A DNA stretch of 64,000 bases. It comes from Trypanosoma brucei (Eukaryota). Shown here piece after piece: positions 28,138 through 54,112 of the stretch (position 1 is the first letter of the stretch; each line of letters starts with the position of its first letter). Below the pieces are notes generated by a model that did no database searches, was not told where the DNA came from, and saw only the letters and a list, made by a program, of their open reading frames with translations. The translations under genes and the position numbers were made by a program. The stretch is taken from assembly GCA_000002445.1 (NCBI GenBank), contig CP000067.1, forward strand, positions 224,001-288,000. The letters are read 5' to 3'.

Positions 28138-28446
28138 ATGAATAATATAACTTCTGAAGTATGAGAGGAAAACCAAAAAAAAAAGCAACAAAACCAACGC
28201 GATTGTTTCACGTGGCAGCGGAGGTCGGCGGAGCAAACGTGTGCGCACTGAGAAGCAGTGAGGAAGAAATAAAGTAGTACAGACACACACTAAACAAAAA
28301 GCGAAAGGGAAATAAACAAAGCCATTATGGGGGCGTGAACAAAGGGAATCATAATCTACACATCTCAACGGTTCCATCTCCTCTTTTTTGCGCCACACCG
28401 CTGTAGTTAATGACCCATGCTCCACCAGGACTAATGTATTGTTCCA
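28138..28446 (-). promoter_or_regulatory. Predicted trans-splice-acceptor/polypyrimidine region upstream of the dynein gene, combined with the polyadenylation region of the upstream J-domain gene.
   Basis: The minus strand carries a T10 run (plus-strand A10 at 28175-28184) inside a pyrimidine-rich stretch 40-60 nt upstream of the trimmed dynein ATG. Confidence 0.4.
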
Positions 28447-30378
28447 TCATGTAGCCGCTGAAAAAGTCATTCCAAGGGAAACATCGTAGAGTAGCTTTTC
28501 CTCGGGATTAGAAAGAACTTCATGTGCCCTGCTAACACGCTTAAATTTTTCCAGTGCAGCCTCTTGCATACCTGGTGACTCGCCAATAACCCGATCCGGG
28601 TGATACTTCAGGGTGAGTTTTTTATACTGAGACCGGACATCATCAATGGTAGCTCCAAAGGGAAGCTCTAAGGCGTCATACAAGGTCATCGAATTCATCG
28701 TCCGAACTACTGGCGTCGAGTTTTCCTTCTCTGTCTTCTCAAAAGGATCGGTTGCGAAATCATCCTTTCTCAAAAAGGCATCATACCACCGGGGTATGCA
28801 CCTTTTTTGCCCATTTCGTGGCTGTGAGGAGCCATTTGCTTCCATCTTAGGAAGCGACTGCTCCTCATCACCACGCAAGATGTGGCTCAACTCTGGATCA
28901 AACTTTACGGCAGTCAGTCTATCCAGAGCAGCTTCGGCTCGGCAACCCAACTGGTAGTGCGCCTCTGCACGGCATGCGTAGGCCTTCGCACAACTGGGGT
29001 CCATATCAATGGCGGAGGTGCAGTCATCAACAGCATTGTTATACCTGCCACAATGGCTATGCACCTCTGCACGCATGCAATACAAGTGTGCGCACATCAA
29101 ACGGTTGGATTTGTCCAACCCTAAACCCTCATTAATGTGAGGAATGGCGTCTACGTACCTTTTCTTACCGAATAAATCCGCCACCCGAACAAGAACCTCC
29201 TCGAGTGATACGAGATAATACCCGAGCACAAGGGCTGGGCCGAAACCAGGGCTGAGTGTCAGGCACGTTTGCACGAGAGCAGCGGCGAACTCTAGATATT
29301 TGCTTCCACAATATACATTTGCTTGTGCCAACACAACCGATGCCTGAACGTAGTGCTCATTTACACTCCGCCAAACTGCTTGTTCTTCCAATGATACGTC
29401 CATACGGAGCGACGTTGGGCGAGGTATGGTCGGCACATATTCCATCAGAAGTGTTCGTGCTGCAGTTGGGGACACGTACAGCAGTGCTCTCGCTTCCAAA
29501 AGTATCAGCGGCGTATCGTCGATAAGGGGCCGCGCGGCATCCGAGGAACATAACGCCTCCTTCCACTTCTTTTCTTCAATACAGGAGCGGAACTTCTGCA
29601 ACACCGGCAGGGCGGTACACTCCGCCGTCCATTTGACATTGTGTGGATCATCCGCTGACGGAGCGAGCTCTTTCAGCCCATAGTCATACCAGCGCCATGC
29701 GTCCCGATATCTCTCACGGACGACTAACGAACGACAGAGGAGACTCAACATATCTTTGTCTGTATCGATGCCCCTGCGAGCGTCTTCAATACATTCGTCA
29801 AAGAGCAACAGGTGCCAGTCGCATATCGCGCGCCGGCAGTGGGCCGTTTTTGAATTTGGATGTTGTCTGATGATACGGCTGAAGCAAACGTGGGCACCAG
29901 CGTAGTCCTTAGAGGCAAGCAGCCGCATCCCACGGCTCTCCAACTCCATGGATGGGAGCACCTTTTCGGCAGAACCCCCTCCCATAGCTCGAAGAATACA
30001 TCTCCACTGGATGTTCTCATTAGCAACTATCAAACGACGACATGACCCTTCCTCATTGGCTGTTTGCCAAAGGGCCGCCGTCAAGTCCTTCAGTGTTCCT
30101 CCAGGAGAGCGAGAAAGTACTGACTTTTGCGTCTCTTGGTTTCCCTTCATGCGATGTTTAAATTCCCACTGCGGGTACTCACTAGGGGCCACTCTACTCA
30201 TTGGTTTATTTCGCTTCTTCTGTGTCCTCACCGGCCGCTGAGGATGCCGGACAGAGTTCATTTCAGGTTTTTTCTGTGGTTTCCCTCCGCTGATATTTGG
30301 GAACAGAGTGCCACTAGATGTTATTGTCTCCGCAAAGCAAGGCAGTTGGATATGGTGACTCATGGCGCCCACGTGCAA
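28447..30378 (-). CDS. TPR-repeat protein with C-terminal DnaJ (J) domain. DNAJC7/DNAJC3-like architecture.
   Basis: 643-aa ORF. C-terminal J domain LYDALELPFGATIDDVRSQYKKLTLKYHPDRV (HPD motif). Upstream TPR-like repeats (AKAYACRAEAHYQLG, YLEFAAALVQ and others). Basic N-terminal tail. Confidence 0.75.
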   Translation of the reverse strand: MHVGAMSHHIQLPCFAETITSSGTLFPNISGGKPQKKPEMNSVRHPQRPVRTQKKRNKPMSRVAPSEYPQWEFKHRMKGNQETQKSVLSRSPGGTLKDLTAALWQTANEEGSCRRLIVANENIQWRCILRAMGGGSAEKVLPSMELESRGMRLLASKDYAGAHVCFSRIIRQHPNSKTAHCRRAICDWHLLLFDECIEDARRGIDTDKDMLSLLCRSLVVRERYRDAWRWYDYGLKELAPSADDPHNVKWTAECTALPVLQKFRSCIEEKKWKEALCSSDAARPLIDDTPLILLEARALLYVSPTAARTLLMEYVPTIPRPTSLRMDVSLEEQAVWRSVNEHYVQASVVLAQANVYCGSKYLEFAAALVQTCLTLSPGFGPALVLGYYLVSLEEVLVRVADLFGKKRYVDAIPHINEGLGLDKSNRLMCAHLYCMRAEVHSHCGRYNNAVDDCTSAIDMDPSCAKAYACRAEAHYQLGCRAEAALDRLTAVKFDPELSHILRGDEEQSLPKMEANGSSQPRNGQKRCIPRWYDAFLRKDDFATDPFEKTEKENSTPVVRTMNSMTLYDALELPFGATIDDVRSQYKKLTLKYHPDRVIGESPGMQEAALEKFKRVSRAHEVLSNPEEKLLYDVSLGMTFSAAT

Positions 30379-31302
30379 GCTCCTCCGATGGCTGAAAGAA
30401 CCGCAGTGCGGGAGGGCCTTTCTATTTCCTGTCAGGGTAAGGAAACAAAGTATTTAGAAAAAAAAAGAATTAGTAAAACAGCAATGAAAACTGATAAATC
30501 CAACATAACCCAAGTGAATTAAGTGAGTTAGCTAAGCCACAAAAAGCGCCTAAGACCATGTAAGGAGAGTAGTGAACGACCTATTTCCACCAGAAGTCGC
30601 GCGCCGCTCACGAGGGGGGGGACCCACCCACTAACGTCCTGTCGGGTGAATGGAGTTTAAAAAAAAAAAAGCGAAGACCAGCGTTGATAAAACGAAAGAT
30701 TTTTTTTTAACGAAAGAAAAAGTGTGAGAACAAAAGATCTCTGTCAAAAAAAAATCCCACTTTAGGCTATAACATCTACGCCGAAACCCGTAGTCCCTCA
30801 TCCAAAGCACAAAAATGGAGAACGGCCCTTAGCGTTCCCGAGTTAGAATTGAAGTTCAGAAATGTGCAAGAGAACCATACACCCTCCGCAACCATTCTCC
30901 GCTTCGACGCTTGACCTGTACTCATTAACAACAAAAGTGACAGCACACAACACCGGGCCCCTTGCCGATGTCACAACCAAAAGTACCGCCGCCATCTTAT
31001 GCTCTTTTTGCCCCTCAGTATGGCAGCTCATTACCATCCGTAAATCGACGTAAACCCACACACACAAATGCACCACCTTTTCTCTGTCGTTTACTCCTTC
31101 ATCTTATTTGTCTCAAGCAGCCAGTTTTTCTCCTCCTCCATTTTCTCAGCCCACAGTCTTTCAACCCCTTGCCGTCCCAACCAGAACCACACAGGTTGCA
31201 ACAACGTGAAGCAAACATCCTCCCGCCCAGACGTGCACGCACACCTTCCAGCAGCGCGCGAATTCCTCAGCGTGTTGTCATTAGAAGAAAAAAAGAGAAT
31301 AT

Positions 31303-31650
31303 TTACTTCTTTGGCTTCTTACGGGAACGGTGCGCACCAAATCCCTTTCCGTCGCCCCTACCGTCCAGATCGCTGGGAAGCAGCTTGCCCATTTTCATCA
31401 ACGGCGGACAGCAGCGCAGCGCGTCGGGAAGTTGGAAAAAAACAATGTTTGTTCCACACACCAACACCTTCGGCATATCCACCTCCCGTCCCGCCATCGT
31501 CGTCTTGCGGGCGGAGGTCAGTAACACGCCCATATTGTCCACCACCTCGCTAAGCGTACCGGTGTAAAGCTCCCCATTTTTTAACTCCAACGACACGGTG
31601 GTGCCGACAGCATCGGACAGCACCTTCAGCGGGAGCCCCTCCGTGTTCAT
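31303..31650 (-). CDS. Sm-fold snRNP core protein, Sm D3-like.
   Basis: 115 aa. Sm1-like segment LKVLSDAVGTTVSLELKNGELYTGTLSEVVDNMGVLL. Sm2-like segment KVLVCGTNIVFFQLPD. Gly/Arg/Lys-rich tail GRGDGKGFGAHRSRKKPKK. Confidence 0.65.
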   Translation of the reverse strand: MNTEGLPLKVLSDAVGTTVSLELKNGELYTGTLSEVVDNMGVLLTSARKTTMAGREVDMPKVLVCGTNIVFFQLPDALRCCPPLMKMGKLLPSDLDGRGDGKGFGAHRSRKKPKK

Positions 31651-32505
31651 AGTCTACTCCAAGTGAGAAACAGATGGGAGAAGTTACACGCGTGGGGGCA
31701 CGAGGTGCTTTCAGTGTCCGGCTTCTTTTCTTTTCTTCCTTTTTTCCCTATCTTGCCGTTGAAACGAGTAAGAGTGAAGTCATAATAATTTTTTTTATAG
31801 CGATAAGGAGAGGAAAGCTAGCAGCACTAATATCTGCAACGGGGAAGGGAATTGAAGGCCAAGTACGGAACATTTGCATGCACTCAAGGTTTAACACACG
31901 TAAAAACGGAAGGAACAGCAGCGGCAATTGAACGACATCGCATGATAGATGGTAACGTATGTTACCTCAACAAACGCACAGCACATGACAACACGATGGT
32001 CATATGCATCCGAAACCAACACGCCAACTTGTCCACAGCGATGCGCTAGTGACCCACCTCCCACCCTGCAGAATATACACATGTGCATGCGAAAGTGACA
32101 CAAGTCATGCCAACAGCCCGCATGGAACAAAACGAAGAAAACAAGCACTCGTTGTCTCAGTCGGTACGCAAATGCTCCACCACACGTATTAGAGTTACGT
32201 TGAGCTCCATAAAGGGTGAGCACACCGTTTGACCCCGCCGCTGAAATGAGTAAACATACAGGACTTCCACAACGCCAGTGTTCTTTTGAGAGTGCATGCC
32301 GTGGTCTGGAACACAGAAAGTGCATCTCCACTACTGTTTTCTATATTCTCTTCCCTCCCCCCCTTGGGCACATACACACACGCACACACATACATGGGCA
32401 AAGGGTTTCTCCAAGGCACCACCGCCGTGTGGGAGGGATGGTGGAAGAGAAGAGTTTTGATTGGAATCACCTCACTTCGTTTCGGGTTAATGTGAATTTT
32501 CGGTA

Positions 32506-42400: not shown

Positions 42401-43007
42401 AGGTCCAAAATTCACTAAGTTTCGATGTGCGCACGCAAAGTGGGATGAACTTCTCGTTAGTTCCGAGTGCAAAAGTTAGTTGAGGGTCATCGCATGGGTC
42501 ATTGCTCGAAAGATGCGAGTCGTATACAAAACAGGAAGAGTCTTGCGTCACCACAAGGATACGCTTCTTCGTCACAAGGGATATTGCGCAAATGGGACGG
42601 TTGCTAGGAAGCTGGACACTGTTGACAGTCGTACCTTCCGTGACGTTCCATACCTTCAAAACACCCGTTCGGTCGCCCGTAAAAAGTAACAACCCCTGAT
42701 GTGAGCACGAAGGCGACGTCGGATTCCACTGAACAGATGTTACCGGTGAAGCATGGCCATGTAATGTTTGCACCAACTGCATGCTGTTTATATCAATTAT
42801 AATCACTTCGCCAGAGCCCTCGCAATAGGAGCTCGTTGCCAACAAATCATGGCAACTTATCTGAGCTGCTTGATACGGCCATTTCTTTATGTCCTCAATA
42901 AGAGCGGCGGAAGCGCCACCCGAAGCCAACTTTCCAGGAATTAGTCTGGGACACAAAATGGCAGTCAACTGGCTCATATTTTGCTCTGCTTTCGGTGAGT
43001 TATACAA
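39441..43007 (-). CDS. WD40 beta-propeller plus helical C-terminal protein, WDR11-like.
   Basis: 1188 aa. N-terminal WD-repeat signatures (LHGHASPVTSVQWNP, LLFTGDRTGVLKVWNV and others). The C-terminal helical region SGKWGEGAVLAKLSPLPVKQQRDLICRWCSHLVRHGQV...VLVLLSES resembles the WDR11 C-terminus (GEWNRAAWLAKVRL...VLRRWVDHL...ALLVLLSLG). The similarity is recalled from memory, not searched. Confidence 0.5.
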   Translation of the reverse strand: MYNSPKAEQNMSQLTAILCPRLIPGKLASGGASAALIEDIKKWPYQAAQISCHDLLATSSYCEGSGEVIIIDINSMQLVQTLHGHASPVTSVQWNPTSPSCSHQGLLLFTGDRTGVLKVWNVTEGTTVNSVQLPSNRPICAISLVTKKRILVVTQDSSCFVYDSHLSSNDPCDDPQLTFALGTNEKFIPLCVRTSKLSEFWTSCVVLGDRIGMIYSQDQDRNGKSPRACVKNLVFESTDGFETVVDAVFSESQEGLLYFATRNSVGVYDCRANLLLDENVLRYSAGDGEFRRIFSSAPSTLTEDTQQLPLLYSYGSNQRLTAWYLLRVGKATSVSTDVRGARIASKVATNVIQSLSAPNVFAVIFSDGSVARWRYRVDCRRWVIDSYFSAALKKPTGFCVLGDNTLCCALEAGYLALVDVAHSNALRRINFVNTSNTHIILLAPHSSKECVWVVTNKAEQSKQHHQVTLFDCHSGVVLQVLREPKYSDATRMKNITQDATGTFLLLTFFGGTFEVWNITESRIIYSYEGTGVASASWAPQIFTPVLAGLKGAPELLLIVFSDGSMSFWTVSWDQVVPNRDAVPRFPNGSSTRVLCTPTRDASVVVDGSGAVTVVGVGTSGLHVRSLKDIPAAKTAIALAVSKGGGGSDNKGEPSDAGNWSEEYLAVVFSDGSFGVWSISSQERMGYSKNTDINLKARGATWLGDALLLLTLTGNIVVVDKLLTSINSSVFSKALRRPLQNSAFFVPEHRMYIQTVLETQVACSAVPSEVRPSSDICPSCLIRGINPERFPCRGPFGQVITAAISSLTRELDLYRKTMVPRYIYEGIQHAFTQSRTDEIALWVARFFGQQERQRLWMQFCLRRGLNCSGAEAGGDGGQQSKSVERWKGGPEVGPPVPYYCADRFSEVSAASEVVYNNHVYMNERRAEALEASKGKEIDVFSQRFLTARELLKLQQPQKAIDVLMDVSHEDNRFPHLSDFAVAISASVAALSGPASELLTLTTSRVASLLRARGDLDSAVDKYMLSGHFYEAVKALQLSGKWGEGAVLAKLSPLPVKQQRDLICRWCSHLVRHGQVMEAAVMLASQALPFQVLVLLSESSQFEDIAGLLAMVLLEDPSFNTRESLQEPIVLPVAEDDSSDALTLGEVLLNVLVDYANMLNTVGNVVSAKAVLEYVTSLKGRNRGITSTST

Positions 43008-43243
43008 AAATGTGTGTACAGGGGTGTATTACACGGGGGACCAGCCTTCTCTACCCTATACAACATTAAGTGAATTAGCGGATTGCAAAAAAAAGGACCA
43101 AAACCAAAAACCGAGGACAGAGAAAAAAAGTTAGCGGGACAACTAAGGAAAGGTAAGAAGCAAAATAAAATGGCAGTGGAACACCTCCAGTTATTGGTAT
43201 TCAACCAGATCGCCAAATAACGCGTGTTACCTTTACTCGCTTA

Positions 43244-44583: not shown

Positions 44584-45702
44584 TCAGTAAAATAACTTGC
44601 GGTACAACACCGAATCTCCCTCCTCCTCCATATCGGCACGTGTAATCCAAAGGGATGCAAAGGAGGAGCTATCTGTCGCCAAAGATGCGCCCACCCAGGC
44701 TCCGTCTACGGCACGAGACAAGTGGAAACCGCCCTCTTTTTCGTAACGAAAGTAACACGAATCCCTTTGCTGAACCTCTGTTAGCAACCGCTCACGGAAA
44801 CCGGGGGCCTGCGCCGTTCCACCACAAAGTGTGTGCGAAACGAACTGCAGTTGCCACTCGGGATCTAAACGCTGCTTGCAGCCCACAACAAGGTCCCCCA
44901 GTGAGCTCCCGAAACCACCAACCGAACGAAACAAAACCTCATATGCCTCCACTCGCGCCCGTCCTTCAACGGTAATGGCGCTCCCATCCGGGGCTCGTAA
45001 CACTAATGACCCTTCTTCCTTGTTACTTTCAGAAGCATCGGTACGAACGGTACATGCCAGTCGTTTAATGTCCCCAACCAAATCATCCATTGCTAATGCC
45101 CGCACGGTAGGAGTCTTGAATCGCGCCACACCTTCTAGTGCTTGTAACTGCTCACTGTCCAACATACCCTTGAGCACCTCCGTGACAACTTTGCCGGCAA
45201 CATCACTCGAAGCCACCGTTCCCCGCAGGGCGTAGCCGTCCAACACCGCAGCGGCGGTGGCGTGACTGTGCCCGACGTCCAACACGACGGTGGAACACTT
45301 CCCCGAGCTCAGTGCCCATGCAACACTTGGTCGTAGGCAATACAGAGCCGTTGCCACACCTGACTCCAATACGGAATGAAATAGCGCCCGCATCACGTCG
45401 AACCGCTCGTGCCACACCTCCGGGACCACGAGGGTGAGGGTTTCCTCCTTTAGGCAATGCAGCTCATCCCCAATAATGCGTGACAGGTAATCCATATTAG
45501 AGTCCCGCTGAGCATCCAAAGACTGTAATGTCCACATGGATGACACGCTCTCTGATCCTGCCCCATCCGCTGCCATTAGCACAGAGGGAAAACTTGTTTC
45601 AGCAGGCGGTTCCAACAAGTGAAGAGACGGAAACTGGCGCGCGCATCTTGTGTCACCAACATAACCAGCCCGCACATTCCATCCAATCTCCACTACTGCC
45701 AT
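44584..45702 (-). CDS. Actin-related protein (divergent ARP).
   Basis: Start trimmed to MAVVEIGWNVRAGYVGD (ATG at 45700-45702). Actin-fold motifs: VVEIGWNVRAGYVGD (phosphate-1 region), LDVGHSHATAAAVLDGYAL, LCGGTAQAPGFRERL. The longest ORF to 45765 runs through the (CA)n tract and encodes CVCVFVC. Confidence 0.65.
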   Translation of the reverse strand: MAVVEIGWNVRAGYVGDTRCARQFPSLHLLEPPAETSFPSVLMAADGAGSESVSSMWTLQSLDAQRDSNMDYLSRIIGDELHCLKEETLTLVVPEVWHERFDVMRALFHSVLESGVATALYCLRPSVAWALSSGKCSTVVLDVGHSHATAAAVLDGYALRGTVASSDVAGKVVTEVLKGMLDSEQLQALEGVARFKTPTVRALAMDDLVGDIKRLACTVRTDASESNKEEGSLVLRAPDGSAITVEGRARVEAYEVLFRSVGGFGSSLGDLVVGCKQRLDPEWQLQFVSHTLCGGTAQAPGFRERLLTEVQQRDSCYFRYEKEGGFHLSRAVDGAWVGASLATDSSSFASLWITRADMEEEGDSVLYRKLFY

Positions 45703-46245: not shown

Positions 46246-47298
46246 TCAAACAAACGATTTTCGAACGGCTGCGCACAACCCGGCGTCTCTTCCTCTCCGT
46301 GCCAACTCCTCTGCTGCCAGTCTCGTTGGCATTCGGAAAGTTAATTGCTTTACTGTGTCCGGCACGTATGTCTCCTTCACGAAAAGTGTGGTGGCGAGGG
46401 CGCGGGCCCGCACCTCCTCCTCTGCGTTTTTAGCTGCCACACAAACCTCCCACACATCACTAGGCAGCAGCTGCGTTGTAATCGACTGCTCCCGACCAAC
46501 AGAAACACCACAGGAACCCGTAGAGTCCATTTGTATAGAAGAGGACACACAACCGCTAGTAGATGTAGGGGACTTGTGGAGTACTGATGGCGATACACGG
46601 GTACGTTTCACTTGGCAACGATGTAACATGCCGTCAGTATCGTGCATGAATAACTTACACTGCACACACTGCATGCAGGGAACGTGATAGCGTTCGTCTT
46701 GGTACACTTCACTTGCGCAGTGTGCGCAAAGATCCATACCGCATTCGCTACAGTTATAAAGGTAAGTTTCATCCACCGGTTCCGCCTCCGCAGGCAGAAG
46801 GCCCTCCGGGGGGAGTTTCTTTAACCTATGAGGCTTGGCGCGCACCTCCTTGTTTTTACACCAATGGGTCACCCCACAGAAATCGCACGTCACCTCCTCT
46901 GCACCACTGTAATCAGAGATTCTCTTGATGCATAATTCATGGCCATTCCAACAACGCCACAACTTCTCCACTGGATCATACAGTGGACTACCGCTCTGCA
47001 AGAGGTACGCCATAGTCGCCACGGTATTTGTTGTCATTTCCATCTTAACGGATGAATTCATGTCCTTCCCGATGCTTTCAGTTCGCTTCCGTTTTGCGGG
47101 TGCGCGTCGCAGTGGAGACTTCACATCCGAAATATCCCATACTGCGGAATGATCCTGCAATGCCATCGCCACGAAGGGCGAAATATCACTCGGAGCGAAG
47201 GGACATTTTCTTCCCAGGGTGGTTTCCGCCATATCTCCATCATTCTTATTTGCTTGACTCTTTTCCCTCATTGCGTACATTTCAGCAGCGGTGTCCAT
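46246..47298 (-). CDS. Cys-rich protein with ZZ-type zinc finger.
   Basis: 350 aa. CWNGHEL...CDFCGVTHWC...YNCSECGMDLCAHCASEVY matches the ZZ-finger arrangement. A further CMQCVQC cluster. Basic C-terminus. Confidence 0.5.
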   Translation of the reverse strand: MDTAAEMYAMREKSQANKNDGDMAETTLGRKCPFAPSDISPFVAMALQDHSAVWDISDVKSPLRRAPAKRKRTESIGKDMNSSVKMEMTTNTVATMAYLLQSGSPLYDPVEKLWRCWNGHELCIKRISDYSGAEEVTCDFCGVTHWCKNKEVRAKPHRLKKLPPEGLLPAEAEPVDETYLYNCSECGMDLCAHCASEVYQDERYHVPCMQCVQCKLFMHDTDGMLHRCQVKRTRVSPSVLHKSPTSTSGCVSSSIQMDSTGSCGVSVGREQSITTQLLPSDVWEVCVAAKNAEEEVRARALATTLFVKETYVPDTVKQLTFRMPTRLAAEELARRGRDAGLCAAVRKSFV

Positions 47299-47420
47299 CC
47301 CCTTAAATATTCAAGTGCCCCTTTTCCTCGCCTCGCGTCCACCACGCCTCAGGGAGCACTTAAAGAGAAAATTAAAACGAAAGAAAAAAAAAAAGGGAAA
47401 ACGGTGCGCCAATATAATTG
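47299..47420 (-). promoter_or_regulatory. Predicted polypyrimidine tract / splice-acceptor region for the ZZ-finger gene.
   Basis: The plus strand is purine-rich (aaagagaaaattaaaacgaaagaaaaaaaaaaagggaaaa), so the minus strand carries a long U/C tract immediately upstream of the ATG at 47298. Confidence 0.35.
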
Positions 47421-47967
47421 GTACTCAAAAAAAAAAAGAAATGTGGTGTACAGACATATGTTTATATACACACATACATGCATTTATTTTGAAATAAAAA
47501 GAATGAAAAGATTAGAAAGGATTAGAAAAGAGAAAGGAGTAAGGTAAAGAAAAATAAAAATAAAAATAGAGAAGAGAAGACAGAAAAGACAGAAAAAAAC
47601 CCTGTGACTTATAACAAAGTACGTTCGTTAACCTCAGTAATGCACTAGGGTTCCATTTCTAGTAGTTTTTTTTTCCTTTTTTTTTTTGCTTTCCTCCTAA
47701 TTTCATTTTACTCTGACATGTAGTCGTTTCACTGTCCTCCCCCCTCCCCTCCCACATACCTTTTCCTTTCTTTCTTTTTTTTTTCCTCCCTCCCCCCTTT
47801 CCCTTCAGTTGCTCAGCGCATCTAAACAATACCACACACAGACACATAGCTTTAGTTTCTCCACACATTTACACAATTGTTTGCGCCATTGAAGGCTCTT
47901 TCATGCATCTGCATTAATGTTGCGAACACCCCCACAACGTGGGAACAAAATAACGGATGGAAGTGGT

Positions 47968-48002
47968 AATAATAATAATTATTATTATTATTATTATTAT
48001 TT
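47968..48002. repeat. (AAT)4 followed by (ATT)8: an AT-only inverted microsatellite palindrome.
   Basis: taataataataattattattattattattattatt is read directly. The left half is the reverse complement of the right half. Confidence 0.85.
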
Positions 48003-48544
48003 AAAAAGAAAAGAAAGCAGTGAGGGAAGTGACAGCCGAGTGAGTGGCAATGGCGTGGCCGGTAGGCAAAACAATTTTGAGTTTCGGAATCTCCACCACT
48101 CGATTGTGTTGTCACCATTTCCTTCCAAAGTAAAAATTAAACAAAAAAGTGTTGTTGTTTTTTTTTTCTTCCATCATTCCGCCATTTCGATAGGGGGAGT
48201 CACAGACACACAAGAGCCGGCAATATGGCATTTGTTTTGTGGTGGTTATTGTGGTTGTTGTTTACTGCCTCCACATGTGTGGCAGTAAAGGAAAAAAAAG
48301 GGAAAAAGAAGAAGAAAGAAGAAGGAAGAAGGAATAAGGAATAAGGAAGGAAAAGAAAAAAGAAAAAAGAAAAAAAAACATCCTCACTTTTCCTCCACAC
48401 GAAAGCAAAACTGGCAATCCACGAGAAAACATGAGCCTCACATCTGAAAGATGTGAGTTCAAATAAAACAATTGCGCTTGCAACAAAACCCCGAACCAGC
48501 GGGGTTTCGTTACAAATGCGCATTGAAAAGGTATGGCAAAACGA

Positions 48545-48580
48545 AAAAAGAAAAGAAAAGAAAAGAAAAGAAAAGAGAAA
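48545..48580. repeat. (GAAAA)n microsatellite.
   Basis: gaaaaaagaaaagaaaagaaaagaaaagaaaagagaaaag. Confidence 0.85.
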
Positions 48581-50999
48581 AGATATGGACTGAAATGAGT
48601 TGACACACGGATGACTAGGGATGATAAATAAACAACTGCAACGGTTTTGATAAAACGACACGTGTTCTTTATGGACTTTTTTTTCTTTTCTTGCTTTTTT
48701 TGAAAGTTTGCCACTTATCGTTGGTTGTTGTTTCTTCATTTATTTATTCTTTTTTTTTTCCTCTCTTGGTTGTCCCGTCTTTCCGCACATCACATCTTGT
48801 TGTTCATTCCGCCACATCTCCACACACTCCTTTTGTTTTCCCTGAGTTATTGTTGTTGCTGTTGTTGTTGCTATATTATTATTGTTGTTATTACTATTAT
48901 TTCACATTTTTTTTCTTTTTAAACTACTTCCGTTTTCTTACGATTTCTTGGCTTTTTATTTTATTACATTTTATTTCATTTCATTTTTACCTCTTTTGTA
49001 CACTCTACCACACCTTTTCTTTTCTTTCCTTTTGTACTCTCACAATATCACCTCTACTTATTCCTTTCTTCAAACCACGGCAGAGGAAAACATGACACGA
49101 CAAATAATGAAATAAAATTAAGTTAACGATATAATTATATGAAGAAAAAAAAAAGAAAAAAAATGACGAGTTGACGCTGTGAAAAATCTACGAGGGAATG
49201 TCAAACAGCCGCTAAACTCAGTCCTCTCATTTGCCTGACGGGGAAACAAAAATGTGACGTGCATGAAAAAAAAAAAACAAAAAAAAAAGAAAATGAAAAT
49301 GAAAATGAAAAAGTGAAAACAAATGTTGGTAAAATAAATCATCGGACCCCGTCTTCATTTTAATTATCTTTATTATTATTATTGTTTTTTTTTACCGCTG
49401 CTGTTATTGTTATCAATAAGAAAAAGCACGCCGTGGTGATAAAAAAGAAAAAAAAGTGAGAGTAGAAGTAGAAAAAAAAAAAAATAAAACAACAACAACG
49501 TCAACAACAACAACAAAAAGAGGGAGAGGAGGTTTGATCAGCTGGCGGAAGAAAAAGTTGGGATCAAATTAAGATAACTTTCAAAAAAGAAAAAAAAAGA
49601 GAGAGGGGGAAAGGAAGGAAGGGAAATAAATAAATAAATGAGGGAGAGAAAGGGGGAAAAAAAAAAGAGAGAAAAGAGAAAAGGGAAGGAGAAGGAGAAG
49701 GGAAGGAAAAAGAAAAGAAAAGAAACTCCCATTCCCATTTACTTCACTTCATCACTGGCTTACTCACTTTACATGTGCGGTAATGTAAATATAAATACAT
49801 GTATAGACACATAAAGGAGTGCGGATACCCATACGGATATTCATACAGAAATAATATAAAGATAAACAAGATCGGTACATTGGTCTCATTCATCCACTTA
49901 CTCAATTTATTTATTTATTTGACTTTTGGTGACAACTGCGCGTTCATGGAGAAGAGGAAATCATGCAGTTTGAAGTGATGGAATTTTTTAAAAAAAAAAG
50001 CGGAGGTGCGTCCCATTTGACAAAAACATAACTCCTCACATTTTTTTTTTAAAAATGCTATTATTCTGTGGAGTTTTCTCCACCGAGGCCGAAGGATTAT
50101 TGATCATGGAAGAATTTGAAGAAATGGTGCACAATAATAATAATAAGTGATGGAAATGATGAAAAGGTGGGAAAACTTTAGAAAGAGGGCAGACAAATCC
50201 ACCACAAAGTGCAGCACCCTTCCGTAAACAATTTTTTTAAAAAGAAAACGTTCATGATTTCTCCTCCACTCGATCACTCACTCTTTCCTTCATTCTTTCA
50301 TTCATTCATTAACTGACAGAAGGGGAAAAGAAGAAAGAAGGTTAATAAATAAATAAATAAAAAGATGAATGGCCCGAGAGAAACACGCACATACGCGCGT
50401 CACGCAATCCACTGCGCAAACACATTCTGTTTTATATTAGCCAGGAGGAGATAAACAAAGGGGGAAAAGGGAGGGGCAAACAAACAAATAAAAACATAAA
50501 ATAGCATTAAAAGGGAAAAGCCGCAAAAAAAAAAAAAGCAAACGAAAACAAGGAGAAAAGAAAAAAGCCAGTTGCTTGAAGCATATCAAGAAAAACAGAG
50601 GCACGGGGAAGAAAAATAAGTGAATTTTGAAAAGTAATTATTTTTTTTTTGAAGGGAAATTTGCCTCACTGAAGTGCGGCAACAAACGCAGGCACGACAT
50701 GCGCATGTAAATATATATATTAAAATATGCGCCCCCGTGCCTGTTAAGGGGAGAGGAGGAAACACTCAAGGGAAAAAAGAGAAAGGGAAAATATGTGCCG
50801 CACTGACGTATATACTTCTGAAACATCACATACACAGGGACACATACACAGACACAAACACACACAAAAAAAAAAAAAACTGCCTCAAGGTTAATAAAAC
50901 TGGCTGAAAGGGAAAGAGAAGGGGAGGGGAAAAAAAAAAAATGGCGGCGGCCGCGGTTACGGCAAGGGGGAAAAAAATAGTAAATAAAAATGGGGTGCC

Positions 51000-51689
51000 C
51001 TACAGCTCCTGAGATCTTTCAGATGATTTTTTCAGCGACCTCACGGGCGGAAGAAACCCCTCGTCATCGCAAACAGCCCCACGGCGAGCTTCCAGCGGTG
51101 GTCGGACACCACTTCGCAGGCTCGCGTTGGATAACCGCTTCCCCGGCAGATCCACCAGAGACGAGGACATTTGCAGAGACTCGCAGCTTTCCTTTGATGA
51201 GTGGTATGTGCAATCGGAGCCGATGGATGAGCTCCGTGGGGATGGCGAAGACGCTTGATCCTGCCGCATGGCTTCGAATATGTAATTGAAATGTGGATGC
51301 GCATGACCCATCAACTGTTTCGTGGAATCCCCCTGTGGTGTTACAGGCGAATGGGGTTGCTCAGTAGGAGAAGGTATATGCTTCAATTTGTATTGACGAA
51401 ATGACAATTCCCCAAGTCGCATGAACACCAAGTGATTAAGCGCTCCCTCCTTCACAGCAGACTCATGAACCCGAAGCCGCTTATCCTTATACCCTTCCAG
51501 CGGGGCAAAAAACCAATTAACATAACCCTCAGGCTGCAACTCACCCACAAAACAATACCTTCTGTAGGAAAATGTACCCCCGAAATCCAACATGGGTGAG
51601 TAGCTGACCTTCGACAGAACCATGGGGACGCCGTCAACATTCATTTCCATAGGGAGCTCCATCATGACCGGACTGATGCGTAAAAGCAC
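51000..51689 (-). CDS. Hypothetical protein.
   Basis: 229-aa ORF with good coding-like composition. Ser-rich C-terminal half. No family recognised. The start could be a downstream Met (MMELPMEM). Confidence 0.4.
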   Translation of the reverse strand: MLLRISPVMMELPMEMNVDGVPMVLSKVSYSPMLDFGGTFSYRRYCFVGELQPEGYVNWFFAPLEGYKDKRLRVHESAVKEGALNHLVFMRLGELSFRQYKLKHIPSPTEQPHSPVTPQGDSTKQLMGHAHPHFNYIFEAMRQDQASSPSPRSSSIGSDCTYHSSKESCESLQMSSSLVDLPGKRLSNASLRSGVRPPLEARRGAVCDDEGFLPPVRSLKKSSERSQEL

Positions 51690-52491
51690 TACGCAACACC
51701 TGTGGTTATGATGTTAATTTTACCAACGAATGGAAGGTACAAAAGGGAATGCCAAAAACGACGGCAAGGGAAAAGATATAAATAGGTAAACGGGTATATA
51801 TAAAAAAGAATGATCAGAAATATATAAACCTTACCTTAGCCTATCCGATTGTTGTGAACAGCGAACAGACTTTGCCGAAATGAAACAGATGGTGCGCGCA
51901 CTGATGCAAAGGTAAAAACTTCGCGGGCGCAACACGTTAAAAATTTTTTTTTGGTTAAAATGTTTTCAAGAAGAAGGAAAAGAGAAGAGATGTCAAGATA
52001 TTGAGGGTCGAAACGACATGGGAAAGGCAAGGAGCAGAAACAAACAGCAGCAGCACGTAGCAATAAGGGAAAGGAGGAAACAAAATTATAAAAAGTAGTT
52101 GTGGGGGGGGGGTCGACAACATGTGAACTTGTTCGCATGTTGAAGGAGGAAGTACTGGAAACTGGCACACGGTTTCAGGAATGTGGAAAAGAAAAAAACT
52201 TTTAAGGTAGAAAAGATCGGATGAGCGCATACGCCTCGGCAGCAATATCCCACACGCACAAAAACATATGCCCAAAGCGACATTCACTTCGCTGCAAACC
52301 TCCAGCGCATCCTCGCGGTAACCCCACCATCTGTTCGCATTTCCTCTCACTGTCCCCCTTCTCCTTTTCCACCCGACCGTCACATACGCTTCATACTCTT
52401 GTCGGTTACTCCCAGACGCGTTAACACTTGGTAGAGATTTTCAAAATGCCATCCGTCCCTTGCAATCCCCCTTCGCCACACGCACGCACAC

Positions 52492-52639: not shown

Positions 52640-54112
52640 TCAAACAAAAACACTCTTCACCGCTTCAGTGATAACTTTAGCGGCCCGCAGCAACTCATCC
52701 TCTGTGGCTGTTCCCTTTACAAGAATGCGCAGCGCCGAAAAGTTGCTGCATGCCTCCTCCTTAGAGAAGAGATGGCGAGTAAGAAGAACACCTTTTCGCC
52801 TTGCCGCTTCCACGACCTGCTGTAACTCCTCCTCTACCTTTTGATGGTGGCACTTCACATAAGCGTCGGTTGGGCGCAGGATCACAATTGGGGACACATC
52901 ACCAGCGCACTCCACCAAAGTAATCTTTTCGGGATTCATTCCAGCGCTCCGGATGGCACCACGAAAGAGACCAGCATTTCTTTGAAGTTTTTCGGGGAAT
53001 GAATGGTCCTCATCCAGAAGTTTCAACACGGCCGAAACACCGGCTGTAATGTAAGGGGCAAGAGAAGCAGAAAAGACGTAAGCGGCAGCTGTAAGTCGCT
53101 GGTATTCGATAATAGCGTGCTCTCCAGCACAGAAACCGCCGACTCCACCCATGGCCTGACTTAAGCTTCCAACATATAAATCAATCCGCGTGGTGGGAAT
53201 ACCATAGTGTTCATGCGTACCGCGCCCCGTGGGGCCCATGCAACCGAAACCACAACTGTCATCGAGAATAATACGAAATTTGTACTTCTCACAGAGCTCC
53301 AAAACCTGTGGGAGTTTGCACACATCGCCCAGGTTCTTGAAGACGCCCTCGGTCACCACAAACCTTCTTGAGAGCTTTTTCTCCTTCATTTCTTTTATCT
53401 GCACCTCTCGCAGAATCTCCTCAAGATGCGCCATGTCATTGTGTCGGTACTTGAGCAGGTTCGCACGGGACAACGTGCAGCCTTCGTGTACGGGAAGACT
53501 AACACCATCATCAACGATTAGATAGTCCCCCCTCGATGCGTGACATGGAATAAGCGTTGAAATCGTAGCAAAGGAGAAACTAAAGATGAGGGAATCTTCA
53601 ACACCAAGAAACTTGGCAATGTCTTCCTCCAGCACCATGTGGGGCTTAATCGTACCATAAAACCCACGGGGGCCACAGCTGCCAACGCCGTACGCCACCA
53701 CAATCTTCTTGGCCACATCCACCACCGTGGGATGCGTTGAAAAGGAGTGAAAATCCTCCGTCACGAGGTCAAGGTACTCTCTGCTGCTTGAATCCGATTC
53801 GTCCCGCAGCGTGATGTAGCAGCTATTACGTGCCTCCACCTCTGACATTCCGGTGCGGTTGGGCAGTTGTGTGTTGGCGTTTGGTTTCGCGTCGGCTCTA
53901 AACATCTGCGACCGGAACGCGGCAATTCGGCGCTGTTGCTCCTCCAGCGGTGGCAATTCCGGCTCAACTATTTTTGAAGTGTTGCGCCTACGGATGAAAT
54001 GCAGGGCCAATGCAACTGCGAGGGCCGCCGCCAGAAGGGCCTCGAGTAATAGATGAGAAAACTCTGAGAACGCCAGCGGTGCAGTGGATGAAAGAGTCTT
54101 AAATCCCACCAT
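52640..54112 (-). CDS. LCB1: Serine palmitoyltransferase subunit 1 (LCB1/SPTLC1-like; non-catalytic aminotransferase-fold subunit).
   Basis: 490 aa. N-terminal TM segment. YGVGSCGPRGFYGT, KYRHNDMAHLEEIL, RRFVVTEGVF, GTHEHYGIP and GGFCAG align with SPTLC1. The SPT2-type GTFTKSFG PLP-lysine motif is absent, which fits LCB1 rather than LCB2. Confidence 0.8.
   Translation of the reverse strand: MVGFKTLSSTAPLAFSEFSHLLLEALLAAALAVALALHFIRRRNTSKIVEPELPPLEEQQRRIAAFRSQMFRADAKPNANTQLPNRTGMSEVEARNSCYITLRDESDSSSREYLDLVTEDFHSFSTHPTVVDVAKKIVVAYGVGSCGPRGFYGTIKPHMVLEEDIAKFLGVEDSLIFSFSFATISTLIPCHASRGDYLIVDDGVSLPVHEGCTLSRANLLKYRHNDMAHLEEILREVQIKEMKEKKLSRRFVVTEGVFKNLGDVCKLPQVLELCEKYKFRIILDDSCGFGCMGPTGRGTHEHYGIPTTRIDLYVGSLSQAMGGVGGFCAGEHAIIEYQRLTAAAYVFSASLAPYITAGVSAVLKLLDEDHSFPEKLQRNAGLFRGAIRSAGMNPEKITLVECAGDVSPIVILRPTDAYVKCHHQKVEEELQQVVEAARRKGVLLTRHLFSKEEACSNFSALRILVKGTATEDELLRAAKVITEAVKSVFV

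What the first reader, a model, noticed from the sequence alone, without database searches (positions are those of the whole stretch)
47299..50999. A 3.7-kb gene desert with switching strand asymmetry inside the co-directional array.
Typical spacers in this window are 0.3-0.9 kb. This tract has no coding-like ORF. It alternates between blocks that are GA-rich on the plus strand (47300-47640, 48280-48370, 48540-48580, 49130-49330, 49440-49730) and blocks that are CT-rich on the plus strand (47640-47830, 48670-49080). It is packed with microsatellites. Trypanosomatid genomes also contain internal (head-to-tail) transcription-unit boundaries marked by chromatin features rather than sequence motifs. 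This tract could be an unusually long 3' UTR of the 51000-51689 gene, an internal termination/re-initiation site, or the home of an unannotated non-coding transcript. The plus-strand pyrimidine blocks would be splice-acceptor-like only for a plus-strand transcript, which nothing else in the window supports.
Basis: partly seen in the sequence, partly recalled or inferred. Interest (0 to 1): 0.6.

Follow-up and report, generated by a model that had tools for sequence, protein, structure and literature searches.

The report
Long 3' UTR of Tb927.4.1000
The 3.7-kb "gene desert" is real, but it is almost entirely the already-mapped 3.5-kb 3' untranslated region of a highly expressed Trypanosoma brucei gene (Tb927.4.1000), so it is an ordinary, known feature and not a hidden transcription boundary.

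Summary
The window is T. brucei TREU927 chromosome 4 (window coordinate = chromosome coordinate minus 224,000).

**Observation: confirmed.**
- 47299-50999 is the only spacer longer than 1 kb among about 26 (median about 0.5 kb).
- Its GC content is 36%, and 17% of it is simple repeats.
- It has no coding-like ORF.
- Its purine-rich and pyrimidine-rich blocks far exceed what shuffled sequence gives.

**Interpretation: resolved by published end-mapping (Kolev 2010).**
- The predominant poly(A) site of Tb927.4.1000 (CDS 51000-51665, minus strand) gives a 3,509-nt 3' UTR ending at window 47491.
- That site is 133 nt upstream of the single tight spliced-leader acceptor of Tb927.4.990 (47358, 60-nt 5' UTR). 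A polypyrimidine tract and an AG lie between them.
- The same paper lists no novel transcript here and no internal Pol II start site. The unit runs from Tb927.4.1190 to Tb927.4.300.
- An annotated "lncRNA" (KS17gene_5275a) overlaps the Tb927.4.1000 gene model. On DRBD3 depletion it falls in step with Tb927.4.1000, while Tb927.4.990 does not change.
- The plus-strand GA-rich blocks are polypyrimidine tracts on the mRNA strand.

**Comparison with other species.** Orthologous spacers in T. cruzi, T. vivax and T. theileri are 1.3-1.7 kb and are long for their surroundings. The T. brucei tract is therefore a low-complexity expansion of an ancestrally long UTR.

**Verdict:** already known, low interest.

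The parts
51000..51665 (-). CDS of Tb927.4.1000 (221 aa, conserved hypothetical, AAZ10691/Q580C8). This is the gene that owns the long 3' UTR.
   Evidence: Exact-sequence look-up. Its syntenic orthologues align at 41/29/27% identity. [quoted passage not shown] Its abundance in procyclics is 18.7 RNAs per cell. The mRNA is listed as bound by RBP3.
51666..51918 (-). 5' UTR of Tb927.4.1000 (253 nt). The spliced-leader acceptor is at 51918.
   Evidence: Kolev 2010 Table S12 gives the predominant acceptor at chr4 275918 with dispersion 1.2. An AG immediately precedes it on the minus strand.
47491..50999 (-). 3' UTR of Tb927.4.1000 (3,509 nt to the predominant poly(A) site). This is 95% of the 'gene desert'.
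   Evidence: Kolev 2010 Table S13 gives the predominant poly(A) site at chr4 271491 with a 3' UTR of 3509 nt. The averaged site is 271777 (3222.6 nt) and the dispersion is 288.7. The 224,000 offset was verified on four acceptor sites and on the Tb927.4.1010 ORF. The mRNA ends ...TTTTTATTTC, followed by genomic AAAA.
47359..47490 (-). Inter-transcript processing region (132 nt). It holds the polypyrimidine tract (about 47361-47440 on the minus strand) and the AG at 47359-47360. Together these direct trans-splicing of Tb927.4.990 and the coupled polyadenylation of Tb927.4.1000.
   Evidence: Sequence read. The poly(A)-to-acceptor distance is 133 nt, against a published median of 142 nt with an interquartile range of 123-178.
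47299..47358 (-). 5' UTR of Tb927.4.990 (60 nt).
   Evidence: Kolev Table S12 gives the predominant acceptor at chr4 271358, a 5' UTR of 60 nt and dispersion 0.64. The AG was confirmed.
46246..47298 (-). CDS of Tb927.4.990 (350 aa, conserved hypothetical, AAZ10690/Q580C7), the downstream gene.
49583..49725 (-). Largest UTR-internal polypyrimidine tract on the mRNA strand (143 nt; an AG follows within 5 nt). Others lie at 48273-48380 (108 nt), 49237-49325 (89 nt) and 48525-48589 (65 nt). They are potential cryptic trans-splice signals.
   Evidence: Tract scan using the Kolev definition.
48670..49080 (-). Purine-rich block on the mRNA strand (CT-rich on the plus strand). A second one lies at 47640-47830. 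Both are low-complexity sequence with (GTT)n, (TAT)n and (TTTTA)n microsatellites. No function is shown.
   Evidence: Complementarity to the pyrimidine tracts reaches only 46 nt at 74-80% or 33 nt at 85%, which fits low-complexity sequence. Orthologous UTRs show almost no such blocks.
48200..48739 (-). Spurious 179-aa ORF inside the 3' UTR.

Best explanation
The tract is the 3' untranslated region of Tb927.4.1000, plus the short processing region and 5' UTR of Tb927.4.990.

**How it works.**
- RNA polymerase II reads through the whole region as part of one long minus-strand polycistron.
- The polypyrimidine tract and AG at 47359-47440 direct spliced-leader addition to Tb927.4.990 at 47358.
- As is general in trypanosomes, that splicing event sets the poly(A) site of the upstream mRNA about 130 nt further up, at 47491.
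- The result is an mRNA of about 4.5 kb: 39-nt spliced leader + 253 + 666 + 3,509 nt + poly(A).

**What the composition means.**
- The plus-strand GA-rich blocks are U/C-rich tracts in the mRNA.
- Inference: these tracts are binding platforms for pyrimidine-tract RNA-binding proteins such as DRBD3/PTB1, on which the mRNA level depends. Inference: they must also be kept from acting as cryptic splice sites.
- The purine-rich blocks and the microsatellites are low-complexity expansions specific to the T. brucei lineage.

**Shown:** the transcript ends, the lack of coding potential, the lack of a mapped start site, and the co-regulation.

**Inferred:** that coverage is continuous across all 3.5 kb, and that the UTR is what confers the high and DRBD3-dependent expression.
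For: **Identity of the locus.** Exact protein matches to TREU927 chr4.

**Published end-mapping (Kolev 2010).**
- The predominant poly(A) site gives a 3,509-nt 3' UTR.
- The next gene's acceptor lies 133 nt downstream, with dispersion 0.64.
- I confirmed the coordinate transfer: all four mapped acceptors fall right after an AG, and the Tb927.4.1010 coordinates give an ATG..TAA ORF.

**No separate transcript or boundary in that data set.**
- No novel transcript is listed on chr4 between 137 and 313 kb.
- The gene is absent from the table of UTR-internal alternative processing (file 19).
- No internal Pol II unit boundary is listed.

**Independent RNA-seq, both life stages (DRBD3 depletion).**
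- The lncRNA annotation in the tract is flagged as overlapping Tb927.4.1000.
- It changes by -1.5 (bloodstream) and -1.1 (procyclic).
- Tb927.4.1000 changes by -1.41 and Tb927.4.990 by +0.13.
- The authors state that such down-regulated lncRNAs are mostly segments of longer mRNAs.

**No other kind of gene.** No coding potential, no Rfam family and no tRNA.

**Within the known range.** 3' UTRs of up to about 6 kb and 8.5 kb (RBP10) are documented.

**Conserved property of the gene.** The orthologous spacer is the longest or second-longest locally in T. cruzi (1,302 nt), T. vivax (1,437 nt) and T. theileri (1,666 nt).
Against: - A poly(A) site just upstream of the next acceptor is expected whatever RNA ends there. 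Assigning it to Tb927.4.1000 does not by itself prove one continuous 3.5-kb UTR.
- The averaged UTR is 286 nt shorter than the predominant one (dispersion 289). Some molecules therefore end further upstream.
- The Kolev data come from procyclic forms of another strain.
- An lncRNA model was called in the tract by a transcript assembler. I could not see its coordinates or any coverage track.
- The tract carries many strong internal polypyrimidine-AG signals.
Confidence: 0.9

Rival explanations
1. Part of the tract is also released as an independent, trans-spliced and polyadenylated non-coding RNA (the annotated KS17gene_5275a). This would use one of the internal polypyrimidine-AG signals and would leave a truncated Tb927.4.1000 mRNA. 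It would be a UTR-internal transcript of the kind seen for about 400 T. brucei genes. This can coexist with the main explanation.
For: - An lncRNA model exists between the two genes.
- Poly(A)-site dispersion of 289 nt points to minor upstream ends.
- Strong internal pyrimidine tracts of 143, 108 and 89 nt are each followed closely by an AG.
- The phenomenon is documented elsewhere.
Against: - No internal acceptor or novel transcript was reported in procyclics.
- The gene is not in the published table of alternative UTR processing.
- The lncRNA falls together with the mRNA on DRBD3 loss. Use of a cryptic site would make it rise instead.
Confidence: 0.15
2. The tract is an internal head-to-tail boundary of Pol II transcription units. 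Transcription would terminate and re-initiate there, marked by chromatin and not by sequence.
For: Only circumstantial. The spacer is long, AT-rich and low-complexity, and such boundaries do exist elsewhere on the chromosome (the 'Internal' unit Tb927.4.5080-4670).
Against: - The published unit list, which combines 5'-triphosphate reads with histone marks, runs uninterrupted from Tb927.4.1190 to Tb927.4.300.
- No tRNA or snRNA gene is nearby.
- The downstream genes have normal, tight acceptor sites.
- A mapped poly(A) site sits at the far end of the tract.
Confidence: 0.02
3. The plus-strand pyrimidine blocks (47640-47830, 48670-49080) serve an antisense plus-strand transcript as splice-acceptor signals.
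For: The plus strand has pyrimidine tracts of up to 92 nt. Such blocks are rare in the other spacers.
Against: No plus-strand transcript is listed in the region. There is no start site. The plus-strand ORFs there are low-complexity with non-coding codon usage.
Confidence: 0.02
4. The tract hides a small protein-coding gene, such as the 179-aa ORF or the two 141-aa CDS annotated in T. b. gambiense.
For: The ORF at 48200-48739 lies on the gene strand. The DAL972 annotation has two CDS in the orthologous tract.
Against: - Frame-breaking indels occur between subspecies.
- GC3 and codon scores are at non-coding levels.
- There are no Pfam hits.
- The first gambiense ORF has no intact equivalent in TREU927.
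- The ORFs are not in the TREU927, T. equiperdum OVI or IVM-t1 annotations.
Confidence: 0.01

Closest known systems
Long regulatory 3' UTRs of T. brucei mRNAs with internal polypyrimidine tracts (for example RBP10 at 8.5 kb, and the targets of DRBD18 and DRBD3/PTB1)
   Same: - It is a multi-kb, AT-rich UTR full of pyrimidine tracts.
- Its poly(A) site is set by the next gene's trans-splicing signal.
- Its mRNA level depends on a pyrimidine-tract-binding protein (DRBD3).
- An lncRNA annotation is embedded in the UTR.
   Different: - No regulatory element has been mapped in this UTR.
- The protein is an uncharacterised 25-kDa conserved hypothetical, not a known regulator.
- DRBD3 loss lowers the whole transcript and does not reveal cryptic processing.
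UTR-embedded 'lncRNAs' such as KS17gene_6446a (in the Tb927.8.1300 3' UTR), and UTR-internal transcripts (Kolev 2010, Table S3)
   Same: An assembler-called non-coding transcript lies inside the spacer downstream of a coding gene and overlaps its UTR.
   Different: Here there is no evidence of separate processing. It is absent from Table S3 and from the novel-transcript list, and it is co-regulated with the host mRNA.
Internal (head-to-tail) Pol II transcription-unit boundaries of T. brucei
   Same: Both are a long non-coding gap inside a run of co-directional genes.
   Different: There is no mapped start site, no adjacent tRNA or snRNA gene, and a mapped mRNA 3' end spans the gap.

Membership tests
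Trypanosome mRNA 3' UTR (polyadenylation coupled to downstream trans-splicing) | It starts at the stop codon of an expressed gene, on the transcribed strand. | tested here: met
   The tract abuts the stop codon of Tb927.4.1000 at 51000 on the minus strand. The gene is highly expressed.
Trypanosome mRNA 3' UTR (polyadenylation coupled to downstream trans-splicing) | An experimentally mapped poly(A) site lies at its distal end and is assigned to that gene. | tested here: met
   Kolev 2010 Table S13 gives the predominant site at chr4 271491, which is window 47491, for a UTR of 3,509 nt. The coordinate offset was verified.
Trypanosome mRNA 3' UTR (polyadenylation coupled to downstream trans-splicing) | The poly(A) site lies about 100-200 nt upstream of the next gene's acceptor, with a pyrimidine tract and an AG between. 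| tested here: met
   The distance is 133 nt, against a published median of 142. A T-rich tract and an AG are read directly in the sequence.
Trypanosome mRNA 3' UTR (polyadenylation coupled to downstream trans-splicing) | Continuous sense-strand RNA coverage runs from the CDS to the poly(A) site. | not testable with these tools
   Support is only indirect. The lncRNA model overlaps the gene model and is co-regulated with it. No internal acceptor or novel transcript is listed.
Trypanosome mRNA 3' UTR (polyadenylation coupled to downstream trans-splicing) | It has no conserved reading frame. | tested here: met
   There are 34 indel blocks among three subspecies, and many are not multiples of three. 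Codon usage is non-coding.
Internal Pol II transcription-unit boundary | Start-site marks are present (5'-triphosphate reads on both strands, H4K10ac/H2A.Z). | tested here: not met
   The site is not in the published genome-wide list. A single unit runs from Tb927.4.1190 to Tb927.4.300.
Internal Pol II transcription-unit boundary | Termination marks are present (H3.V, H4.V, base J). | not testable with these tools
   No ChIP data were accessible.
Independent long non-coding RNA gene | It has its own spliced-leader acceptor and poly(A) site, distinct from the neighbours. | tested here: inconclusive
   None was reported in procyclics. A model, KS17gene_5275a, does exist, but I could not obtain its coordinates.
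Independent long non-coding RNA gene | Its abundance is uncoupled from the flanking mRNA. | tested here: not met
   In bloodstream forms the log fold change is -1.5 for the lncRNA and -1.41 for Tb927.4.1000. The downstream gene changes by +0.13.
Structured small RNA locus (snoRNA cluster, tRNA, other Rfam families) | It matches a covariance model or a tRNA model. | tested here: not met
   No Rfam hit reached the gathering score. In E-value mode only chance-level hits appeared, all with E of 1.7 or more. No tRNA was found.

The most novel reading that the evidence does not exclude
The many strong internal polypyrimidine-AG signals of this UTR might be used in a stage- or stress-specific way. 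That would yield a truncated Tb927.4.1000 mRNA plus a UTR-derived non-coding RNA (KS17gene_5275a). The unusual purine-rich blocks on the mRNA strand might pair with pyrimidine tracts to mask them. One such pairing involves the functional tract of Tb927.4.990: arms 47369-47401 and 47671-47703 are 85% complementary.
Probability: 0.08. Interest if true: 0.35.

Novelty: already known. Interest (0 to 1): 0.08.

Why it matters
It matters little beyond annotation hygiene.
- In trypanosomes, a long AT-rich, microsatellite-laden, ORF-free gap inside a gene array is most simply a long 3' UTR. The 'switching strand asymmetry' is largely the pyrimidine-tract content of that UTR.
- ORFs annotated inside such tracts (two in T. 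b. gambiense) are probably spurious, and an lncRNA model inside one may be only a segment of the UTR.
- The one mildly useful biological point concerns Tb927.4.1000, an uncharacterised gene. It is highly expressed, dependent on DRBD3 and bound by RBP3. Its UTR is long in every trypanosome examined and has expanded more than two-fold in the T. brucei lineage. That makes it a reasonable candidate for studying UTR-mediated control.

Tried and rejected
**Sequence and homology searches that found nothing useful**
- Rfam at gathering score on the whole window, and in E-value mode on 46900-51400, gave nothing meaningful. The tRNA scan found none.
- Pfam on the desert ORFs, the gambiense ORFs and Tb927.4.1010 gave no hits.
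- Sensitive blastn of the tract against the orthologous spacers of T. cruzi, T. vivax, T. theileri, T. grayi and T. rangeli gave only low-complexity matches. No covariation or conservation analysis was therefore possible.
- The inverted-repeat search found only purine/pyrimidine low-complexity complementarity and no large inverted duplication.
- The homologue search with the Tb927.4.1000 protein returned only Trypanozoon sequences, so no T. congolense locus was obtained. Orthology with more distant species was shown by synteny and alignment instead.
- The T. equiperdum OVI assembly has N-gaps exactly at the pyrimidine microsatellites, so it was uninformative for the ORF test. DAL972 and IVM-t1 replaced it.
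- A tblastn search for a phosphoglucomutase remnant in the T. vivax 1.9-kb spacer and in the T. brucei spacer found none.

**Literature supplements**
- Supplements of Siegel 2010, Guegan 2022 and the DRBD18 paper are not held.
- Nilsson 2010 and the nanopore lncRNA paper have no entry for these genes.
- Supplement look-ups are now exhausted, so the coordinates of KS17gene_5275a could not be retrieved.

**Considered and dropped**
- Centromere or replication-origin readings were considered. There are no tandem arrays beyond microsatellites, and no data bear on either.
Full report
**Where the window comes from.** All long ORFs lie on the minus strand at about 50% GC. The 350-aa ORF at 46246-47298 and the aminotransferase at 52640-54112 are exact matches to T. 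brucei brucei TREU927 proteins AAZ10690 and AAZ10693 on the 1.59-Mb chromosome 4. The 221-aa ORF at 51000-51665 is AAZ10691. Published coordinates show that window coordinate = chr4 coordinate minus 224,000. With this offset the genes are:
- Tb927.4.980: actin-like, 44584-45702.
- Tb927.4.990: 46246-47298.
- Tb927.4.1000: 51000-51665.
- Tb927.4.1010: 51955-52230.
- Tb927.4.1020: serine palmitoyltransferase-like, 52640-54112.

I verified the offset in two ways. All four published spliced-leader acceptor sites fall immediately after an AG on the minus strand. The Tb927.4.1010 coordinates also give an ATG..TAA ORF.

**Checking the observation.** The gap 47299-50999 is 3,701 nt, against a median of 504 nt for the window's 25 spacers. 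The only other spacer over 1 kb (30364-32505) contains an LSm-domain gene. The tract is therefore the sole outlier.
- GC is 0.357, against 0.41-0.49 for the other spacers. Simple repeats cover 17% of it.
They are far beyond chance: 27 purine-rich and 11 pyrimidine-rich 60-nt windows, against 1.4 and 0.0 in dinucleotide shuffles.
It has non-coding codon usage and GC3 and no Pfam match. Indels of 1, 5 and 7 nt between T. brucei subspecies break its frame.
- The two 141-aa CDS annotated in this tract in T. b. gambiense DAL972 are equally low-complexity. The first has no intact equivalent in TREU927.

**What the tract is.** Kolev et al. 2010 (PMC2936537) mapped transcript ends genome-wide in procyclic cells.
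- Their Table S13 gives Tb927.4.1000 a predominant poly(A) site at chr4 271,491, for a 3' UTR of 3,509 nt. The averaged site is 271,777 (3,223 nt) and the dispersion is 289.
- Table S12 gives Tb927.4.990 a single tight acceptor at 271,358, with a 60-nt 5' UTR and dispersion 0.64. It gives Tb927.4.1000 an acceptor at 275,918, with a 253-nt 5' UTR.
- In window coordinates the mRNA of Tb927.4.1000 runs from 51918 to 47491, and the next mRNA starts at 47358.
- The 133 nt between them contain a T-rich pyrimidine tract and the AG. This matches the published median poly(A)-to-acceptor distance of 142 nt, with an interquartile range of 123-178.

The 'desert' therefore divides into 3,509 nt of 3' UTR, 132 nt of processing signal and 60 nt of 5' UTR. 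A 3.5-kb UTR is long against the median of 388 nt. It is still inside the reported range of up to about 6 kb, and RBP10 has 8.5 kb.

**The other readings.**
- The same paper's list of novel transcripts has nothing on chr4 between 137 kb and 313 kb, on either strand.
- Its table of genes with UTR-internal alternative processing does not contain Tb927.4.1000.
- Its list of Pol II transcription units combines 5'-triphosphate reads with the histone-mark sites. It has one uninterrupted minus-strand unit from Tb927.4.1190 to Tb927.4.300.
- There is no tRNA, snoRNA or other Rfam family in the tract.

An internal termination/re-initiation site is therefore not supported.

**The annotated lncRNA.** A later lncRNA annotation does place a model, KS17gene_5275a, between Tb927.4.1000 and Tb927.4.990. 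The DRBD3 study (PMC12592628) lists it as overlapping Tb927.4.1000.
- On DRBD3 depletion it falls by log2 -1.5 in bloodstream forms and -1.1 in procyclic forms.
- Tb927.4.1000 falls by -1.41, while Tb927.4.990 is unchanged at +0.13.
- The authors state that 50-60% of such down-regulated lncRNAs are embedded in UTRs and are segments of longer mRNAs.

This is independent evidence, from both life stages, that RNA from the tract belongs to the Tb927.4.1000 transcript.

**Meaning of the strand asymmetry.** Genes here are on the minus strand. The plus-strand GA-rich blocks are therefore U/C-rich tracts in the mRNA.
- The window's other spacers show the same bias: 35 purine-rich and 4 pyrimidine-rich plus-strand windows.
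- The UTR contains 34 pyrimidine tracts of at least 18 nt. They include tracts of 143, 108 and 89 nt, each followed closely by an AG.
- It is established that 3' UTRs in T. brucei carry many such tracts. It is also established that proteins such as DRBD18 and DRBD3/PTB1 keep them from being used as splice signals.
- The two blocks of opposite polarity (47640-47830, 48670-49080) are the only mildly unusual element. They are microsatellite-rich and are almost absent from orthologous UTRs. Their complementarity to the pyrimidine tracts is what low-complexity sequence gives.

I regard these two blocks as neutral expansions. A masking role by RNA pairing is an untested idea.

**The gene that owns the UTR.** Tb927.4.1000 encodes a 25-kDa conserved hypothetical protein with no Pfam domain.
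- Jensen et al. [quoted passage not shown] It is not a row of their Table 2, which ranks genes by maximum signal in any stage.
- Kolev's estimate is 18.7 RNAs per cell in procyclics.
- Its mRNA is listed among the few bound by RBP3.

A long, protein-binding UTR fits such individually controlled abundance inside a polycistron. That link is inference.

**Comparative view.**
- Synteny is conserved across trypanosomes: inositol-pentakisphosphate 2-kinase, DUF501, aminotransferase, the Tb927.4.1000 orthologue, the Tb927.4.990 orthologue, then actin-like. The orthologues of Tb927.4.1000 align at 27-41% identity.
- Within Trypanozoon the spacer is 3,650-3,701 nt. It shows 98.4% substitution identity, against 98.7-99.5% for flanking CDS, and has 34 microsatellite or homopolymer indels.
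- It is 1,302 nt in T. cruzi, 1,437 nt in T. vivax and 1,666 nt in T. theileri. In each case it is the longest or second-longest local spacer, and no sequence similarity to T. brucei survives.

A long UTR is therefore an old property of this gene. The T. brucei lineage more than doubled it with low-complexity sequence.

**Caveats.**
- A poly(A) site upstream of the next acceptor would exist whatever RNA ended there. End-mapping alone therefore does not prove one continuous 3.5-kb UTR.
- The 289-nt dispersion shows that some molecules end earlier.
- I could not view coverage tracks or the lncRNA's coordinates.
- A minor UTR-internal transcript therefore remains possible (about 15%). It would still be a known kind of thing.

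**Verdict.** It is an already mapped long 3' UTR and is of low interest.

Noticed in passing
window 30364-32505 (ORF 31303-31650, minus strand): The window's second-longest 'spacer' (2.1 kb) contains a 115-aa ORF with an LSM domain (Pfam E=1.8e-9). This is a small Sm/LSm gene that falls below a 150-aa ORF cut-off.
   Followed up: partly
window 28378-28446: Only 69 nt separate the stop codon of a TPR-DnaJ gene (28447-30363) from the first ATG of the 4,679-aa dynein heavy chain ORF (14338-28377). That is too short for a poly(A) site, a pyrimidine tract and an acceptor. The dynein N-terminal domain starts at about residue 331, so the true start codon is probably a downstream ATG.
   Followed up: partly
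window 51955-52230 (Tb927.4.1010): This annotated 91-aa 'hypothetical protein' lies just upstream of the Tb927.4.1000 splice acceptor. It is low-complexity, has non-coding codon usage and no Pfam hit, and Kolev 2010 lists it as producing no detectable transcript. It is probably a spurious gene model.
   Followed up: partly
L009 2523-2948 (+) and 4184-4609 (-), T. b. gambiense DAL972: Two 141-aa CDS are annotated inside the orthologous 3' UTR. Both are F/L/S-rich translations of low-complexity DNA, and the first is not intact in TREU927. They are likely annotation artefacts.
   Followed up: yes
L007 1-915 (T. grayi) and L008 1-589 (T. rangeli): In both draft assemblies the contig ends inside the spacer upstream of the Tb927.4.990 orthologue. 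This suggests that the orthologous UTR is also repetitive and hard to assemble in these species.
   Followed up: no
window 42978-43243, compared with L003 14102-15859, L006 14265-16025, L007 4876-6372 and L008 4728-6482: A phosphoglucomutase gene lies between the orthologue of the 43244-44203 gene and the WD40 gene in T. cruzi, T. theileri, T. grayi and T. rangeli. It is absent at this position in T. brucei (266-nt spacer) and in T. vivax (1,890-nt spacer). tblastn found no remnant in either.
   Followed up: partly
window 47369-47401 and 47671-47703: The functional pyrimidine tract of the Tb927.4.990 splice acceptor is 85% complementary over 33 nt to a purine-rich (mRNA-sense) block 269 nt upstream, in the Tb927.4.1000 3' UTR. 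This may be chance, given the low-complexity composition.
   Followed up: no
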